64,000 bases of DNA from Eledone cirrhosa (GCA_964016885.1 CAXHJY010000349.1:1-64000), one strand, 5' to 3'; numbered from the stretch's first letter, positions 930 through 63,722 are shown. Numbers and translations are program-made. The notes: generated from the sequence alone by a model not told the origin.

Positions 930-1035
930 GCTCCGAAGATCTGACTGGTTATAATTCTGTATTGGCGATCGAGTAACGCAAAATTAAGCGGATAGCGATC
1001 TCTAGACATACCAGTTCAGTGAAACAAATGTAAGC
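930..1035 (+). ncRNA. HHR-like motif with CCGAAGA (U4C) core and long stem II insert
   Basis: GCT-CCGAAGA-TCTGACTGG...CCAGTTCAGT-GAAAC(AAAT)GTA-AGC. The 3' half is repeated inverted at about 840-870. Confidence 0.55.
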
Positions 1036-1376
1036 TATGTGATTAAAAACTTTTTTGTATAGCAAACCATGTAAACCTTCATTCCTGAATTATATATATA
1101 TATATATATATATATATATATATATATAGACATTTATATATATATACATATATATATATATATACATATATATACATACATATATATATATATAAACATA
1201 CACACATATATATATATATATATATACATACACACACACATATATATATATATATATATATATATATATATATATATATATATATATATATATATATATA
1301 TATATATATTTATATGCATACATATATATATATATATATATATATGTGTTTATATATATATATATATATATATATA

Positions 1377-1907
1377 TAAAGTTAAATAAAAGTCAAATGA
1401 TTAAAATTTAGCTTCGCTTATTACTGCTATATATATTTCAGTGACAGCCATCTTTGGCTGTGACCTCTTCAGGCAGTTTGAATTAGTATGGTATAGACAA
1501 GTACATATGTTGTTTAGGTGTATGATATTGTCAATACTCTGATATGCCCAGTTCCTTGTTGGGTTGTTAATTCACTGGGGAACTGGAGTCATATGACTCC
1601 AGTTCCCCAGTGAATTAACAACCCAACAAGGAACTGGGCATATCAGAGTATTGACAATATCATACACCTAAACAACATATGTACTTGTCTATACCATACT
1701 AATTCAAACTGCCTGAAGAGGTCACAGCCAAAGATGGCTGTCACTGAAATATATATAGCAGTAATAAGCGAAGCTAAATTTTAATCATTTGACTTTTATT
1801 TAACTTTATTTTACACTACTCCGGAGTAACCAAACCAACCTGCGCACTTCGTCGAGTGCTCCAGCCTGCATACTGAGGTGTTGGTATACAACCAACATAA
1901 ACTCAAT
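1377..1907. repeat. Fold-back palindrome of the family A pLTR (arms about 215 bp, centre 1592/1593) in (TA)n
   Basis: Perfect inverted repeat around GGAGTCATATGACTCC. Confidence 0.95.
1708..1762 (+). ncRNA. Minimal type I hammerhead ribozyme, family A
   Basis: ACTGC-CTGAAGA-GGTCACAGCC(AAAGAT)GGCTGTCACT-GAA-AT(ATAT)ATA-GCAGT: 5-bp stem I, palindromic loop III, AUA site. Other copies: 1423-1477(-), 11573-11627(-, core mutated), 11858-11912(+), 12234-12288(-), 16364-16418(-), 17010-17064(+), 60864-60918(+). Confidence 0.85.
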
Positions 1908-2059
1908 ATATATATATATATATATAGATGCAGCCTCGGCAGATGAATACTGCTTGATTATGGCTGACAACTGATGCAACCAAGTCACCATAGTAAAAAC
2001 CAATATATGGAACATTATATTATGTAGCATTCTTTCATTATTTTAATTTATATTATAAA

Positions 2060-2250
2060 GGGCGGTGAATTGGCAGTATCGGTAGAGGGTCGGGCGCCAT
2101 GCTTTGCAGCACAGTTACGTCCCTTTACGGACTGAGTTTAAATCCCGCCGAGGTTAACTTTGCCTTTCATCCTTACGGGATCGATAAAATAAAGTACCAG
2201 TAATACACTGGGATAATTGCTGGCTTTGTGCCAAAAGTAGAAACAATTAT
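2060..2250 (+). mobile_element. tRNA-derived SINE (about 190 bp)
   Basis: A-box-like TGGCAGTATCGG, B-box-like GTTTAAATCC, body TTTGCCTTTCATCC..GATAAAATAAAGTACCAG; approximate TSD ATTT(T/A)AATTTATATT. Copies at 21955-22135(-), 48156-48340(-), 49100-49290(+), 35580-35772(-), 23270-23420(-), 31610-31760(-), 39808-39910(-). Confidence 0.88.
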
Positions 2251-2271
2251 TTAAATTTATATTCCTTTGAA

Positions 2272-2391
2272 GTTCCGATGAGCCGCTCTGTCTTTTAAAT
2301 ATGTTCATTATTTTCAACTGAACCAGATCAATTATGATATATAATCATCTGATCCAGAAATATCATATGGAGTAGCGAAACAATTGTAAAC
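2272..2391 (+). ncRNA. HHR-like motif with CCGATGA (U4C) core and long stem II insert
   Basis: GTT-CCGATGA-GCCGCTC...GAGTAGC-GAAAC(AATT)GTA-AAC. Confidence 0.6.
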
Positions 2392-59987: not shown

Positions 59988-60038
59988 AGTTTCAGAAGAT
60001 CCCGTTAAGGGTGAAAGCAGCGATTCTTTGCATAAACT
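59988..60038 (+). ncRNA. Degenerate HHR-like motif at the 3' end of the 57140-59097 PLE
   Basis: AGTTT-CAGAAGA-TCCC(GTTAA)GGGT-GAA-AGCAG..TTTGCAT-AAACT. Partial copies in the 36040-36120 hairpin read TTGCTT (CUU site). Confidence 0.5.
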
Positions 60039-60539
60039 TTAATCTGTTATTTTAATAAATATAAATATATATATAAATATATATATATATATAAATATAT
60101 ATATAAATATATATATATAAATATATATATATATTTATATATATATATATAAATCATAATCTATAATATATATATATAAATATATATATATATAAATATA
60201 TATATATATATAAATCATAATCTATGATATATATATATAAATATATATAAATATATATATATATAAATATATATATATATAAATATATATATATATAAAT
60301 ATATATATATATATATATATATATATATATATATATATAAATATATATCTATAAAAATATATATATATAAAAATATATATATATATATCTATATATATAT
60401 ATCTATATAAATATATATATATATAAAAATATATATATATAAAAATATATATATATAAAAATATATATATATATATATATATATATATATATATATATAT
60501 ATATATATATATATATATATATATATATATTTTTTTTTT

Positions 60540-60966
60540 TTTGAGTATATGTTGGCTGTATACCAACACCTCAGTATGCAGGCTGGAGCACACGACGAAG
60601 TGCGCAGGTTGGTTTGGTTACTCCGGAGTAATGTAAAATAAAGTTAAATAAAAAATCAAATGTTTTAAATTTAGCTTCGTTTATTACTGCTATATATATT
60701 TCAGTGACAGCCATCAGTGATAGACTGTGGTATAGGAAATGGAATCATATGATTCCAGTTCCTCAGTGAAATAACAACCCAACAAGGAACTCGGCATATC
60801 AGAGTATTGACAAAATGATACACCTCAACAACATATGTACTTGTCTATACCACACTAATTCGGACTGTCTGAAGAGGTCACAGACAAAGATGGTTGTCAC
60901 TGAAATATATATAGCAGTAATAAACGAAGTTAAATTTTAAAAATTTGACTTTTTATTTAACTTTAT
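60540..60966. repeat. Diverged family A pLTR, inverted pair
   Basis: 60540-60713 is reverse-oriented and about 60740-60966 forward-oriented, both matching family A. Confidence 0.85.
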
Positions 60967-61619
60967 ATATATATAAATATATATATATATATATATATAA
61001 ATCATAATCTATAATATATATATATATATATATATATATATATATATATATATATATATATATATATATATATAAATATATATATATATATATATAAATA
61101 TATATATATACATATATAAATATATATATATATATATATATATATATATATATATATATATATATATATATATATATATATATATATATATATATATATA
61201 TATATATATATATATAAGAGACGTAAAATAAGAAAATTATAAAATTAACTTACTTACTAAAATATCACTTCCAACTAATTAGTTTCTGGAATGGAGTAAA
61301 TATATTTTCCGAAGAATAATATAAAGAAGCATTCCGTCGTCAGGAAAGTCTATTCTCATGTAAGTTTCCAGGCAAAGCGAGGACACTGGAAACTTATTAA
61401 AAAATAATTCAGTGGATAGGAAATGGCGAAGCGTGGACTGAATTACAAGCCATTGAGAAAATCACTGCCTCTACGTCTGTGGCAAATTCAAAAAGATTCG
61501 AACACGTGACATCGAGGTCAATCAGTGGAAAGTGGTTTGCTTATAAGACAGCGGCCTGCCTACAACCGTAGCAGCAGTCATGGCCAATATTGCTCGACAA
61601 ATAATTTGGAGATAATAAT

Positions 61620-62816
61620 ATATATATATATAAATATATATATATATATACATATATAAATATATATATATATATATATATATATATATATATATATATA
61701 TATATATATATATATATATATATATATATATATATATATATATATATATATAAATATATATATATACATATATAAATATATATATATACATTTATATATA
61801 TATATATATATATACATATATATATATATATATATATATATATATATATATATATATATATATAAATATATATATATATACATATATATATATATATAAA
61901 TATGTATATATACATATATATATATATAAATATATAAATATATACACATATATATATATATATAAATATATATATATACATATATATATATATATATATT
62001 TATATATGTATATATATATATTTATATATATATATATATGTATATATATATATTTATATATATATATGTATATATATATATTTATATATATATATATATA
62101 TATAAATATATATATATACATATATATATATAAATATATATATATACATATATATATATATATAAATATATATATATACATATATAAATATATATATATA
62201 TATATATATGTATATATATATATTTATATATATATATATATGTGTATATACTTATATATTTATATATATATATATATATGTATATATATATATTTATATA
62301 TATATATATATATGTATATATATATATATTTATATATATATATATATATATATATACATTTATATATATATATATACATATATATATATATATATATATA
62401 TATATATATAAATATATATATATATACATATATATATATATAAATATATATATATACATATATATATACATAAATATATATATATATATAAATATATATA
62501 TATACATATATATATATATATATAAATATATAAATATATACACATATATATATATATATATAAATATATATATATACATATATATATATATATATATATA
62601 TATTTATATATGTATATATATATATTTATATATATATATGTATATATATATATTTATATATATATATGTATATATATATATTTATATATATATATATATA
62701 TATATATATATATATATATATATATATATATATATATGTATATATATATATATATATATATATATATATATATATAAATATATATATATACATATATATA
62801 TATAAATATATATATA
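61620..62816. repeat. Long interrupted (TA)n microsatellite
   Basis: TA run. Other large tracts at 1090-1376, 5178-5678, 7428-7826, 17214-17576, 51610-52223, 53083-53913, 60060-60530, 60967-61215. Confidence 0.98.
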
Positions 62817-63722
62817 TAAAAACAAATAACGAAACGAAATTAAATTTCGTTTCGCCTCTAACTCACTTTTGTATGACTGACGCTTAAACAATTAAATTAA
62901 AGTGTACATCTACATATGTATACGGAAGTATTAGTATGCATATAAATACACACATGTATACATATGTACATGTACTGAGTTTTTCACTAGACACTTTACA
63001 GTGAGTGTCAGCTAGTCTGTATGTAACCACACAGACGGACCGGGTTTTAGAGTCATACGAGTTTTCAAGGAAACACATTTCCTCTATTCTCCAGAGAGCC
63101 AGACAGGAATATTGGACTAGTTTCGATGTTATTACATCTCATAAGCAATATTTACCCATCTTCCGGCTTCTCTGGAGAATTGTAAAAGCGCATATCGTTA
63201 TATGCTTTTTCTATGAAAATTAGTAGTGGGTAGACTAATTTGCATAGAACGTGAGTCATTGTACGCACCGGTTCAGCGGAAACGATAAAAACAAATAACG
63301 AAACGAAATTAAATTTCGTTTCGCTTCTAACTCACTTTTGTATGACTGACGCTTAAACAATTAAGTTAAAGTGTACATCTACATATGTATACGGAAGTAT
63401 TAGTATGCATATAAATACACACATGTATACATATGTACATGTACTGAGTTTTTCACTAGACACTTTACAGTGAGTGTCAGCTAGTCTGTATGTAACCACA
63501 CAGACGGACCGGGTTTTAGAGTCATACGAGTTTTCAAGGAAACACATTTCCTCTATTCTCCAGAGAGCCAGACAGGAATATTGGACTAGTTTCGATGTTA
63601 TTACATTTCATCAGCAATATTTACCCATCTTCCGGCTTCTCTGGAGAATTGTAAAAGCACATATCGTTATATGCTTTTTCTATGAAAATTAGTAGTGGGT
63701 AGACTAATTTGCATAGAACGGA
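62817..63722 (-). mobile_element. ORF-less tandem repeat, 469-bp unit, one HHR per unit (retrozyme-like)
   Basis: 62821 matches 63290 and 63108 matches 63577 (offset 469). A diverged monomer-plus copy lies at 17801-18290(+) with an about 25-bp terminal direct repeat. Confidence 0.8.

What the first reader, a model, noticed from the sequence alone, without database searches (positions are those of the whole stretch)
930..63621. About 14 distinct hammerhead-ribozyme families (about 30 copies) in PLE-derived repeats that target (TA)n
Seen: nearly every non-microsatellite block between TA tracts carries a motif of the form stemI-CUGANGA-stemII-GAAA-stemIII-NUH-stemI', with unrelated stem sequences (930, 1708, 2272, 2767, 4273, 5729, 17953, 20065, 26399, 27111, 50333, 50741, 52317, 59988). 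Most have a palindromic loop III (ATAT, CATG, CTAG, GATC, AATT, TAATTA, TGAGCTCA). Established: PLE pLTRs carry minimal type I HHRs with palindromic stem III that cleave as dimers. Inference: this genome hosts an unusually diverse set of ribozyme-bearing PLEs and parasites of PLEs; distinct palindromes could act as family-specific dimerisation keys.
Basis: partly seen in the sequence, partly recalled or inferred. Interest (0 to 1): 0.9.

Follow-up and report, generated by a model that had tools for sequence, protein, structure and literature searches.

The report
Hammerhead-laden Penelope elements and retrozymes
This stretch holds 42 copies of 17 kinds of hammerhead RNA motif (predicted to cut themselves), sitting at the ends of Penelope-type jumping genes and of small non-coding repeats that these genes likely copy, in a genome estimated to carry about 300,000 such motifs; the kind of thing is known, but the load, the mirror-image repeat arrays and one huge family with an altered catalytic core are notable.

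Summary
Real. The window holds 42 full-length type I hammerhead motifs in 17 families (31 canonical cores, 5 variant, 6 broken), against under 1 per shuffle; stems covary. Ten families adjoin Penelope-like element (PLE) ORFs (Hydra-type, one Neptune-type); three form non-coding tandem units (retrozymes); four are unassigned. A 1.33-Mb sample gives about 3.3e5 motifs genome-wide; one exact pattern alone counts 118,232 (control 8,510). The density likely follows from insertion: the motif lies near the 3' end, and insertions in (TA)n carry two inverted arms, one ending at a short and one at a long fixed end. Retrozyme arrays show the same two ends and near-identical units in both arms, pointing to PLE copying of one, likely circular, RNA; this scan noted that before on other DNA. 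PLE hammerheads, many families per genome, palindromic helix III and Hydra (TA)n targeting are published. Palindromes are shared between families, so they are not unique keys; stem I must match too. Not found in the papers read: a 17,000-copy autonomous family fixed for U4A. Cleavage and circles are untested.

The parts
930..1035 (+). Hammerhead family F930; U4C core, long helix II, near-palindrome CAAATG; in a 300-bp inverted-repeat block 789-1088
1379..1905 (+). 527-bp element: 428-bp perfect palindrome plus 99-bp tail from the 3' end of Hydra-type element B; joined at an 8-nt palindrome; at least 40 near-identical copies genome-wide
1423..1477 (-). Hammerhead F1708 (TATATA), short-end arm
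1708..1762 (+). Hammerhead F1708, long-end (tail) arm
2272..2391 (+). Hammerhead F2272; U4C core in 3 of 3 copies held, CAATTG
2764..2818 (-). Hammerhead F2767; 3-bp helix III with CTAG in the loop; 27,663 exact 3'-half matches genome-wide
2819..2869 (+). F2767 inverted arm, broken core
3298..3371 (-). Hammerhead F4273 (CCATGG); outer unit of a two-armed retrozyme-like insertion 3018-4720, unit about 655 nt
3949..4036 (-). F4273 second tandem unit, broken core
4273..4346 (+). F4273 inverted arm
5729..5769 (-). Hammerhead F5729, 3' end of Hydra-like element A (duplicated block)
6522..6595 (+). F4273 copy in a local 2.2-kb duplication
7876..7916 (-). Hammerhead F5729, 3' end of element A
9671..11027 (-). 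Element A: 5'-truncated, frameshifted PLE ORF, Hydra-like by homology to B, D, E, F
11524..12060 (+). Second 527-bp-type palindromic element with F1708 copies at 11573-11627 (-, broken core) and 11858-11912 (+)
12183..17215 (-). Element B: near-complete Hydra-type PLE; inverted pLTR 16502-17215, partial pLTR 16213-16496, frameshifted RT-EN ORF about 16017-13484, 3' pLTR 12183-12796
12234..12288 (-). Hammerhead F1708 in the 3' pLTR of B
16364..16418 (-). Hammerhead F1708 in the 5' partial pLTR of B (same strand as 12234, 4.1 kb apart)
17010..17064 (+). Hammerhead F1708 in the inverted pLTR of B
17953..17997 (+). Hammerhead F17953 (CTAG) in a monomer (17801-18289) of the 466-nt retrozyme family; 1,525 exact matches genome-wide
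20065..20146 (-). Hammerhead F20065 (CTAATTAG); retrozyme-like family with 522/542-nt tandem period; 2,257 exact matches
20476..20553 (+). F20065 inverted arm
20770..21897 (+). 3' part of Neptune-type PLE (EN with Cx4CxxC linker) with hammerhead F21700 at 21690-21760
24737..24787 (-). F2767 copy, broken core
25473..25595 (+). Hammerhead F25473, long branched helix II, CGAGTCG
25919..25987 (+). Hammerhead F21700 (Neptune-type 3' end; GAAC, not palindromic)
26399..26443 (-). Hammerhead F21700
27110..27248 (-). Hammerhead F27111 (CGATCG), 3' end of a relative of element E
36490..38168 (+). Element D: 5'-truncated Hydra-type ORF
39275..39405 (+). Hammerhead F39284 (CGATCG, weak stem I), downstream of D; about 72% like F27111
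39528..39612 (+).
41166..41208 (-). Hammerhead F21700
43681..45926 (+). Element E: two-armed Hydra-type insertion; ORF remnant 43920-44863; hammerheads F27111 at 43739-43872 (-) and 45603-45736 (+)
50325..50385 (+). Hammerhead F50333; U4C core in 4 of 4 copies held, CAATTG
50741..50805 (-). Hammerhead F50741 (TATGTA); member of the largest cluster of the sample
50958..51022 (+). F50741 inverted arm
52309..52417 (-). Hammerhead F52317; U3-A8 core in 6 of 9 near-full copies held; long helix III with TGAGCTCA; 56,898 exact 3'-half matches, mostly truncated
52977..53070 (+). F52317 inverted arm, C3-A8 mismatch
53915..56596 (-). Element C: Neptune-type PLE (RT 55061-56596, EN 54311-55060) with hammerhead F21700 at 54054-54122
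57043..60064 (+). Element F: Hydra-type PLE (RT-EN ORF 57043 to about 59090) and its 3' region
59978..60040 (+). Hammerhead F59988 of element F; A at core position 4 in 17,168 of 17,348 exact 32-nt matches genome-wide
60864..60918 (+). Hammerhead F1708, diverged two-armed copy 60531-60963
61267..61349 (-). Hammerhead F20065
62819..63720 (-). Tandem dimer of the 466/469-nt retrozyme unit; hammerheads F17953 at 63108-63152 (broken core) and 63577-63621

Best explanation
The motifs are type I hammerhead sequences at the 3' ends of many Penelope-like element families and in the units of short non-coding repeats that PLE proteins likely copy, and they are dense because a PLE insertion into (TA)n likely starts next to the hammerhead and often copies it twice. 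Steps: (1) shown: motif, covarying stems, link to Hydra- and Neptune-type ORFs, TA flanks, two inverted arms with one short and one long fixed end. (2) inferred: the PLE protein nicks both strands of a (TA)n tract and starts two cDNAs at two fixed sites 3' of the hammerhead; both run through the cleavage site, so the template is uncut or re-ligated; they stop at variable points and are joined head to head, often at a short palindrome. (3) inferred: for the 466-, 310-, 522/542- and about 655-nt units the template is one RNA circle made by hammerhead cleavage and ligation, and each cDNA goes round it several times. (4) from the literature, untested here: motifs with a 2-3 bp palindromic helix III would cut as dimers, which needs two same-strand copies with matching stem I and helix III; those with a longer helix III may cut as monomers.
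For: Excess over shuffles. Calls made from the core alone: stem I and II positions pair at about 0.9 against 0.3-0.4 in shuffles, and pairing among 50 distinct types exceeds all 5,000 permutations for each stem. Within one cluster 93.6% of cells pair, 8 two-sided changes, 0 of 500 shuffles as high. Hydra motifs DKT, CxCx5C, CxxC, CxH in B and F, the EN motifs in D and E; Neptune linker in C (criteria from PMC8557442 section 11). ORF upstream for 9 of 16 families tested, plus F5729 in element A. F59988 copies are variably 5'-truncated ends of F. TA tract within 200 nt downstream in 119 of 141. Neighbouring same-family copies: 39 outward-inverted, 10 tandem, 3 inward, 89 solo. One short and one long end in 10 of 11 fetched 466-nt arrays and 10 of 10 310-nt arrays; same ends as loose ends in independent contigs (16213 and 16331/17097). 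Opposite arms of one array differ by 0,0,0,0,0,1,0 (310 nt; between loci median 3, 8 of 113 zero) and 7,8,0,0,0,1 (466 nt; median 10, 2 of 204 zero). PAc nicks and extends both strands and starts inside the RNA (PMC11167929).
Against: No cleavage, RNA or circle data. Four families are tied neither to an ORF nor to a tandem unit; links for F930, F2272 and F39284 rest on one adjacency each. In 28 inverted pairs outside the arrays most show a short and a long end, but three have equal ends and five lack a TA end on one side. Two older 466-nt arrays have arms 7-8 changes apart. Identical units could also come from a homogeneous linear multimer or from gene conversion; one variant was shared across arms in 1 of 11 arrays. 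Clade calls rest on motifs, no tree; Pfam hits are below cut-off. PMC3846280 explains inverted ends by self-priming on an antisense template instead. Only 3 of 12 motifs folded alone give the full three-way junction-like frame as minimum-energy structure with clear stems I and II (1700, 20058, 52309), as expected for dimer-type motifs but not proof.
Confidence: 0.8

Rival explanations
1. One reading: each family's helix III palindrome is a private key that keeps dimer cleavage within the family, and this drives the diversity.
For: Palindromes are strongly enriched in calls that ignore loop III (59 of 97 against 0 of 11). Only 19 of 1,128 representative pairs could cross-pair in both helix III and stem I, mostly subfamilies of one cluster.
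Against: CAATTG serves 4 clusters, TATATA, TATGTA, CATATG and CTAG at least 2 each; 48 pairs cross-pair fully in helix III. Nine of 17 window families lack a perfect palindrome. Among pairs from different clusters that share a palindrome, most fail at stem I, so stem I does the separating. Divergence of unrelated pLTRs gives this without selection for insulation.
Confidence: 0.12
2. Most of these hammerheads need not cut: the fold is kept as a protein-binding or priming landmark, or as a passenger, and cleavage is dispensable for transposition of the autonomous families.
For: F59988 spread to more than 17,000 copies with A at position 4, a U-U pair at the base of helix II and a CUU triplet. 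U4C and U3-A8 are fixed in other families. Every arm was copied through the cleavage site. Catalytic mutants of the PAc hammerhead still insert in vitro (PMC11167929); 8 of 9 Xenopus retrozyme dimers did not cut (bioRxiv 10.64898/2026.07.22.740005).
Against: The core is exact in 109 of 153 sampled motifs across dozens of unrelated stems, and the fixed variants include known tolerated ones (U3-A8, U4C, U10.1-U11.1; PMC3088659), which argues for selection on the catalytic fold. Compatible with the best explanation for autonomous families; not for circle formation.
Confidence: 0.3
3. The tandem arrays are satellites grown in place from one pLTR-like monomer by unequal crossing-over or slippage and homogenised by gene conversion; no RNA circle is copied.
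For: This is the route favoured in bioRxiv 10.64898/2026.07.22.740005. Conversion between inverted arms could equalise them. No RNA evidence here.
Against: Both arms are multimers with the same locus-specific unit length (311, 310, 308; 463, 466), and both outer ends are the fixed PLE-type short and long ends. In arrays that have decayed, variants are private to single units, which argues against strong later homogenisation.
Confidence: 0.2
4. Chance matches in AT-rich, inverted-repeat-rich DNA, or assembly artefacts.
For: Loose settings give false hits (8.85 per shuffle at the lowest threshold; a satellite in L045). The window is on a 90-kb unplaced contig.
Against: the same families lie on chromosome-scale contigs and in independent contigs.
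Confidence: 0.01

Closest known systems
Minimal and palindromic type I hammerheads of metazoan PLEs (Cervera and de la Pena 2014, PMC4209133; parts 1-2 of 4 read)
   Same: Type I motif in pLTRs, several consensus families per genome, extreme variability, opposite-strand pairs 100-700 bp apart, palindromic positions 15.2-16.2 and loop 3, U3-A8 variant, predicted dimers.
   Different: Counts there are 2,000-9,000 per genome; here about 3e5 estimated. Most motifs here keep a 2-4 bp helix III and many have a very long helix II (up to about 115 nt).
Hydra clade of PLEs (Craig et al. 2021, PMC8557442; passages, section 11 and supplement searches read)
   Same: C-terminal GIY-YIG, DKT, CxCx5C linker, CxxC and CxH, no CCHH, canonical hammerheads, insertion into (TA)n; one Octopus family (Hydra-1_Obim) is listed with its hammerhead.
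   Different: [quoted passage not shown] The listed Hydra-1_Obim hammerhead matches none of the 17 families by eye.
Metazoan non-LTR retrozymes (Cervera and de la Pena 2020, PMC7229834, passages; Li et al. 2026, bioRxiv 10.64898/2026.07.22.740005, parts 1-3 of 5)
   Same: Non-coding tandem units with one type I hammerhead each, GC under 50%, strongly self-paired as circles (z -12 and -4.6); PLEs proposed as the mobiliser; 16 hammerhead families in Acropora millepora, 120,000 copies in axolotl.
   Different: Arrays here are two inverted multimer arms in (TA)n with the PLE short and long ends; the words inverted, opposite, head-to-head and microsatellite do not occur in PMC7229834. Units of 466-657 nt are longer than the 150-450 nt given there, within the 51-972 nt of Li et al.
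Inverted pLTR plus tail architecture of EN+ PLEs (Arkhipova et al. 2013, PMC3846280; Frangieh et al. 2024, PMC11167929; passages)
   Same: Head-to-head inverted pLTR, tail at one end only, palindromes at the junction, internal start of reverse transcription, both strands nicked and extended.
   Different: Tails here are 33-130 nt, not 30-40; the same architecture is seen on non-coding multimers.
Schistosoma Sm-alpha hammerhead repeats (Copeland et al. 2009, PMC2770079; passages)
   Same: About 38,500 hammerheads in a genome of roughly 0.4 Gb (size recalled), about 100 per Mb, like the 115 per Mb here.
   Different: Those belong to one SINE-like family; here dozens of unrelated families share the load. 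So the density is not a record, the absolute number and family count may be.

Membership tests
Type I hammerhead ribozyme | Core CUGANGA, GAAA, NUH in type I order | tested here: met
   31 of 42 copies canonical, 5 variant, 6 broken
Type I hammerhead ribozyme | Three helices round the core with compensatory changes | tested here: met
   helix III is 2-3 bp and complete only in trans for many families
Type I hammerhead ribozyme | Reaches an Rfam hammerhead model's gathering score (library test, not a defining trait) | tested here: not met
   0 at gathering; HH9 38.9 bits against 52
Type I hammerhead ribozyme | Self-cleavage 3' of H17 | not testable with these tools
   needs transcription assay or 2',3'-cyclic phosphate sequencing
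Dimer-cleaving PLE hammerheads | Short palindromic helix III | tested here: met
   8 of 17 window families perfect; 59 of 97 against 0 of 11 in a test blind to loop III; not met by five families
Dimer-cleaving PLE hammerheads | Activity depends on a second copy | not testable with these tools
   from PMC4209133 and the review PMC6765202; the primary paper of Lunse et al. was not held
Hydra-clade PLE (elements B, D, E, F; A by homology) | RT followed by C-terminal GIY-YIG endonuclease | tested here: met
   Pfam GIY-YIG E 9e-4 in B, below cut-off
Hydra-clade PLE | DKG changed to DKT | tested here: met
   ADKT in B, SDKT in F; region missing in A, D, E
Hydra-clade PLE | CxCx5C linker, CxxC and CxH motifs, no CCHH | tested here: met
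   B, D, E, F; in A the linker has lost one cysteine
Hydra-clade PLE | N-terminal RWK motif | tested here: inconclusive
   RWK strings in B only, position not tied to the N-terminus; N-termini missing or broken
Hydra-clade PLE | Insertion into (TA)n and a canonical hammerhead | tested here: met
   F's hammerhead has the U4A variant
Hydra-clade PLE | Groups with Hydra in an RT tree | not tested
   reference proteins were seen only as supplement text; likeness judged by eye
Neptune-clade PLE (element C) | Cx2-5CxxC linker before a C-terminal endonuclease | tested here: met
   CIDKKCISC and CIDKKCIIC; RVT_1 E 4e-4, below cut-off; no tree
Non-LTR retrozyme (F17953, F20065, F4273; 310-nt family on the same contig) | Tandem units each with a type I hammerhead | tested here: met
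   sequence; spacing of matches only, for F4273 and F20065 outside the window
Non-LTR retrozyme | Non-coding, GC under 50% | tested here: met
   466 and 310 nt: GC 0.36 and 0.35, longest ATG frame 64 and 30 aa; not computed for F20065 and F4273
Non-LTR retrozyme | Expressed as monomeric circular RNA | not testable with these tools
   no RNA run was available for this organism in the one run search
Non-LTR retrozyme | Target site duplication | not testable with these tools
   hidden by the (TA)n flanks

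The most novel reading that the evidence does not exclude
This genome is a natural laboratory of about 300,000 hammerheads in some 50 or more families in which (a) non-coding retrozyme circles are copied by PLE enzymes with two rolling-circle cDNAs per insertion, giving genomic proof of the PLE-retrozyme link and of a circular template, (b) a highly successful autonomous Hydra family runs on a U4A core not seen in the texts read, either a new active variant or evidence that cleavage is dispensable, and (c) stem I together with helix III forms an orthogonal set of dimer interfaces that insulates families from each other.
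Probability: 0.4. Interest if true: 0.72.

Novelty: new variant of a known kind. Interest (0 to 1): 0.5.

Why it matters
Why PLEs keep a hammerhead, and what moves animal retrozymes, are open questions in the papers read. This genome offers direct handles: retrozyme arrays with PLE-type ends and identical units in both arms test the circle-and-PLE model, and large families fixed for U4A, U4C or U3-A8 test whether cutting is needed. It also shows that Rfam at gathering score misses all of an estimated 3e5 motifs of this type in such a window, and that Hydra-type PLEs can make up several percent of a 3-Gb animal genome.

Tried and rejected
Rfam at gathering score: nothing; the E-value list is mostly miRNA models on hairpins and TA tracts. 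Solved-structure search: no hit for F, one weak RT hit for C. Run search: no RNA holder listed, which says nothing on expression; three runs of unknown kind were laid as contigs and used only for the two fixed ends. Eight of 45 clusters were judged doubtful by eye (satellite, simple repeats, long unpaired loops) and dropped before the counts (141 of 153 hits kept); one search dropped a ninth whose register was mis-called. The genome-wide estimate uses all 153 minus the shuffle mean; it includes decayed copies and misses most F21700 and F52317 copies (16 and 7 full copies in the sample). The sample is 133 stretches at round coordinates on large contigs, not a true random draw. Flanks for five families could not be cut out, so their ORF links rest on loci already held. 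TA content alone does not explain the window's density: 0.58 hits per tract against 0.17 in the sample. The symmetric-variant test on the 527-bp element was weak because best hits are near-identical (1 symmetric pair, 6 asymmetric changes in 30 copies). Nine window hairpins show no one-sided A-to-G excess. Lunse et al. 2017 was not held under DOI, PubMed or PMC id. Seven paper searches listed no survey of hammerheads in cephalopod genomes beyond 235 Rfam hits in giant squid (PMC6962438, passage) and Hydra-1_Obim; figures and supplements of PMC3088659, PMC4209133, PMC7229834 and the bioRxiv preprint were not seen and may show U4A or inverted arrays.

Full report
Observation. The window is 31% GC with 10.9% in (TA)n tracts and is bases 1-64,000 of a 90-kb contig in a 3.0-Gb genome. 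A strict type I descriptor gave 10 hits against 0.01 per shuffle; a relaxed one 26 against 0.43. Family alignment and reading by eye give 42 full-length copies in 17 families, 31 with a canonical core, 5 variant, 6 broken. 25 of 39 blocks between long TA tracts hold a full copy (plus the copy at 39528), and 8 of 17 families have a perfect palindrome in helix III. Rfam gives nothing at gathering score and two sub-threshold HH9 matches.

Structure is under constraint. To avoid circularity I called motifs from the core and spacing only: 87 calls against 12.4 per shuffle; stem I positions 1-4 pair at 0.89-0.92 (shuffled 0.30-0.38), and among 50 distinct types the Watson-Crick counts for stems I, II and III (174, 125, 84) exceed all 5,000 permutations (max 103, 87, 59), with all four pair types in use. 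The types are not fully independent lineages, so this is support, not a probability. Within the F50741 cluster 93.6% of cells pair, with 8 two-sided changes in helix II (3 pairs with two-sided change is not above shuffles). Calls blind to loop III are palindromic in 59 of 97 cases against 0 of 11.

What carries them. The window has five Hydra-like and one Neptune-like PLE family. B and F show DKT, CxCx5C, CxxC and CxH, D and E the endonuclease motifs, C the Cx4CxxC linker; these are the criteria in PMC8557442 section 11, which also states that Hydra elements have hammerheads and insert into (TA)n, and whose supplement lists one Octopus Hydra family. The host is likely an octopus; this rests on a recalled SINE-like repeat and the genome layout and was not tested. 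Nine of 16 tested families have a same-strand PLE ORF within 1.6 kb upstream in at least one held locus; F5729 lies about 1.75 kb past the ORF of A. F17953, F20065 and F4273 form non-coding tandem units of about 466, 522/542 and 655 nt, and a 310-nt family lies further along the contig. F2767, F25473, F39541 and F50333 are unassigned.

Scale. 133 stretches of 10 kb gave 153 hits against 3-8 in ten shuffles, an estimate of 3.3e5 (bootstrap 2.5-4.1e5) motifs; after dropping 8 doubtful clusters, 141 hits in 35 clusters, Chao2 about 48. A whole-genome count of one subclass (short helix II, 6-nt loop III) gave 118,232 against 8,510 for the reversed pattern. Exact family counts: 17,348, 8,507, 1,525, and for 3' halves 56,898, 27,663, 352, 2,257 and 859. 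The window is about four times denser than the sample, also per TA tract.

How the density arises. 119 of 141 motifs have a TA tract within 200 nt downstream (control 12.5%), and same-family neighbours are mostly outward-inverted (39, against 10 tandem and 3 inward; 89 solo). Each family has two preferred ends, for example about 50 and 150 nt past the cut site for F1708 and about 20 and 110 past the motif for F59988, and a two-armed insertion usually has one of each. F59988 copies are nested 5' truncations of element F. This is the inverted-pLTR-and-tail layout of PMC3846280 and PMC8557442, and fits two cDNAs primed on the two nicked strands (PMC11167929 shows both strands nicked and extended, with internal starts). 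Since copying starts just 3' of the hammerhead, even a 100-bp insertion keeps it, often twice. The mechanism is inferred; the layout is shown. The 527-bp palindrome at 1379-1905 recurs in at least 40 near-identical copies, either a non-autonomous subfamily or a joining hotspot at an 8-nt palindrome; could not tell these apart.

Retrozymes. Twenty arrays were fetched. In 10 of 11 of the 466-nt family and 10 of 10 of the 310-nt family (with L072) the two inverted arms end at one short and one long fixed point (about 237/309 and 140/173 nt from GAAA). Unit length is locus-specific and shared by both arms; arm majorities differ by 0-1 in 7 of 7 310-nt loci (between loci median 3) and in 4 of 6 466-nt loci (median 10); the other two are decayed arrays at 7 and 8. 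Variants in decayed arrays are private to units, with one cross-arm share in 11 arrays. Both units fold well as circles. The simplest reading is two rolling-circle cDNAs from one circle, made by a PLE enzyme; a homogeneous linear multimer or conversion is not excluded. I reached this before the look-up, which showed that the scan had noted the same on other DNA (e1-8802758, e1-8803865); that is no independent support.

Core variants. F59988 has A at position 4 in 17,168 of 17,348 exact matches; the other 180 are a mix of T, G and C as expected from later mutation. U4C is fixed in F2272 and F50333 and U3-A8 is the majority in F52317. U3-A8, U4C and a U-U base of helix II are described as tolerated (PMC3088659; PMC4209133); U4A is not in the text read and the search listed no paper on it, but figure 5 and supplements were not seen.

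Keys. In a double hammerhead both helix III and stem I form between molecules (established geometry). Of 1,128 pairs of 48 representatives, 48 cross-pair in helix III, 57 in stem I, 19 in both, mostly within one cluster. Palindromes recur across unrelated families, so they are not private keys; stem I supplies most separation, and no selection for insulation is needed. Inverted arms cannot dimerise in cis; same-strand pairs exist in B (12234, 16364) and in the tandem units.

Papers seen: PMC4209133 parts 1-2 of 4; bioRxiv 10.64898/2026.07.22.740005 parts 1-3 of 5; PMC8557442 abstract, passages, section 11, supplement searches; PMC3088659 passages and section 8; passages only of PMC7229834, PMC11167929, PMC3846280, PMC2770079, PMC6765202, PMC6155905, PMC7761336, PMC6962438; Lunse et al. 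2017 not seen (cited through PMC6765202).

Verdict. Observation confirmed; interpretation partly supported. Known kind (PLE hammerheads, Hydra and Neptune elements, retrozymes) with variant features: very large multi-family load, two-armed retrozyme arrays with PLE ends, and a fixed U4A core. Interest 0.5. The rival confidences concern different steps and do not sum to one.

Noticed in passing
window 26603-26822, 42239-42635, 43134-43532, 49656-49858: A repeat family in (TA)n with the same short and long ends and inverted arms as the PLE families but no recognisable type I hammerhead; 20 matches among held loci. Could hold a different or permuted ribozyme.
   Followed up: partly
window 56597-57055 (+): Open frame of about 150 codons resembling a PLE N-terminus, head to head with the Neptune-type ORF; likely the inverted arm of element C or the start of F.
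   Followed up: no
window 2038-2256, 21956-22137, 39791-39909, 48137-48345, 49079-49290, 23272-23376, 31589-31751, 35605-35770: A SINE-like family of about 200 bp, without hammerhead; it resembles a repeat I recall from octopus genomes (recalled, not tested).
   Followed up: no
window 28864-29241 (-), 28382-29994: Fragment that reads like the end of a Helitron helicase by eye, with terminal repeats; Pfam gave no hit.
   Followed up: no
window 52469-52918: 149-bp direct repeat plus 300-bp perfect inverted repeat, GC-rich, inside the F52317 insertion; source of the top miRNA-model matches.
   Followed up: partly
window 4130-6345 and 6379-8507: Local tandem duplication of about 2.2 kb, 98-100% identical, spanning three repeats and their TA tracts; inflates the copy count by two.
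   Followed up: partly
window 17577-17670, 20557-20724: Mosaic of the F20065 tail with pieces also found beside the 466-nt unit; suggests nested insertions or template switching between retrozyme families.
   Followed up: no
window 930, 2272, 25473, 27110, 39284: Five families have helix II extended to 80-115 nt with branched hairpins, unlike the 4-8 bp helix II in the papers read.
   Followed up: partly
window 11153-11355, 30069-30271, 47302-48140: Fragments that look like 3' ends of RTE-type LINEs inserted among the TA tracts (by eye).
   Followed up: no
L282 (G000:C1:35890900-35894800): A 310-nt two-armed array with both fixed ends but AT-rich, non-(TA)n flanks: targeting is not absolute, and a target duplication might be readable here.
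   Followed up: no
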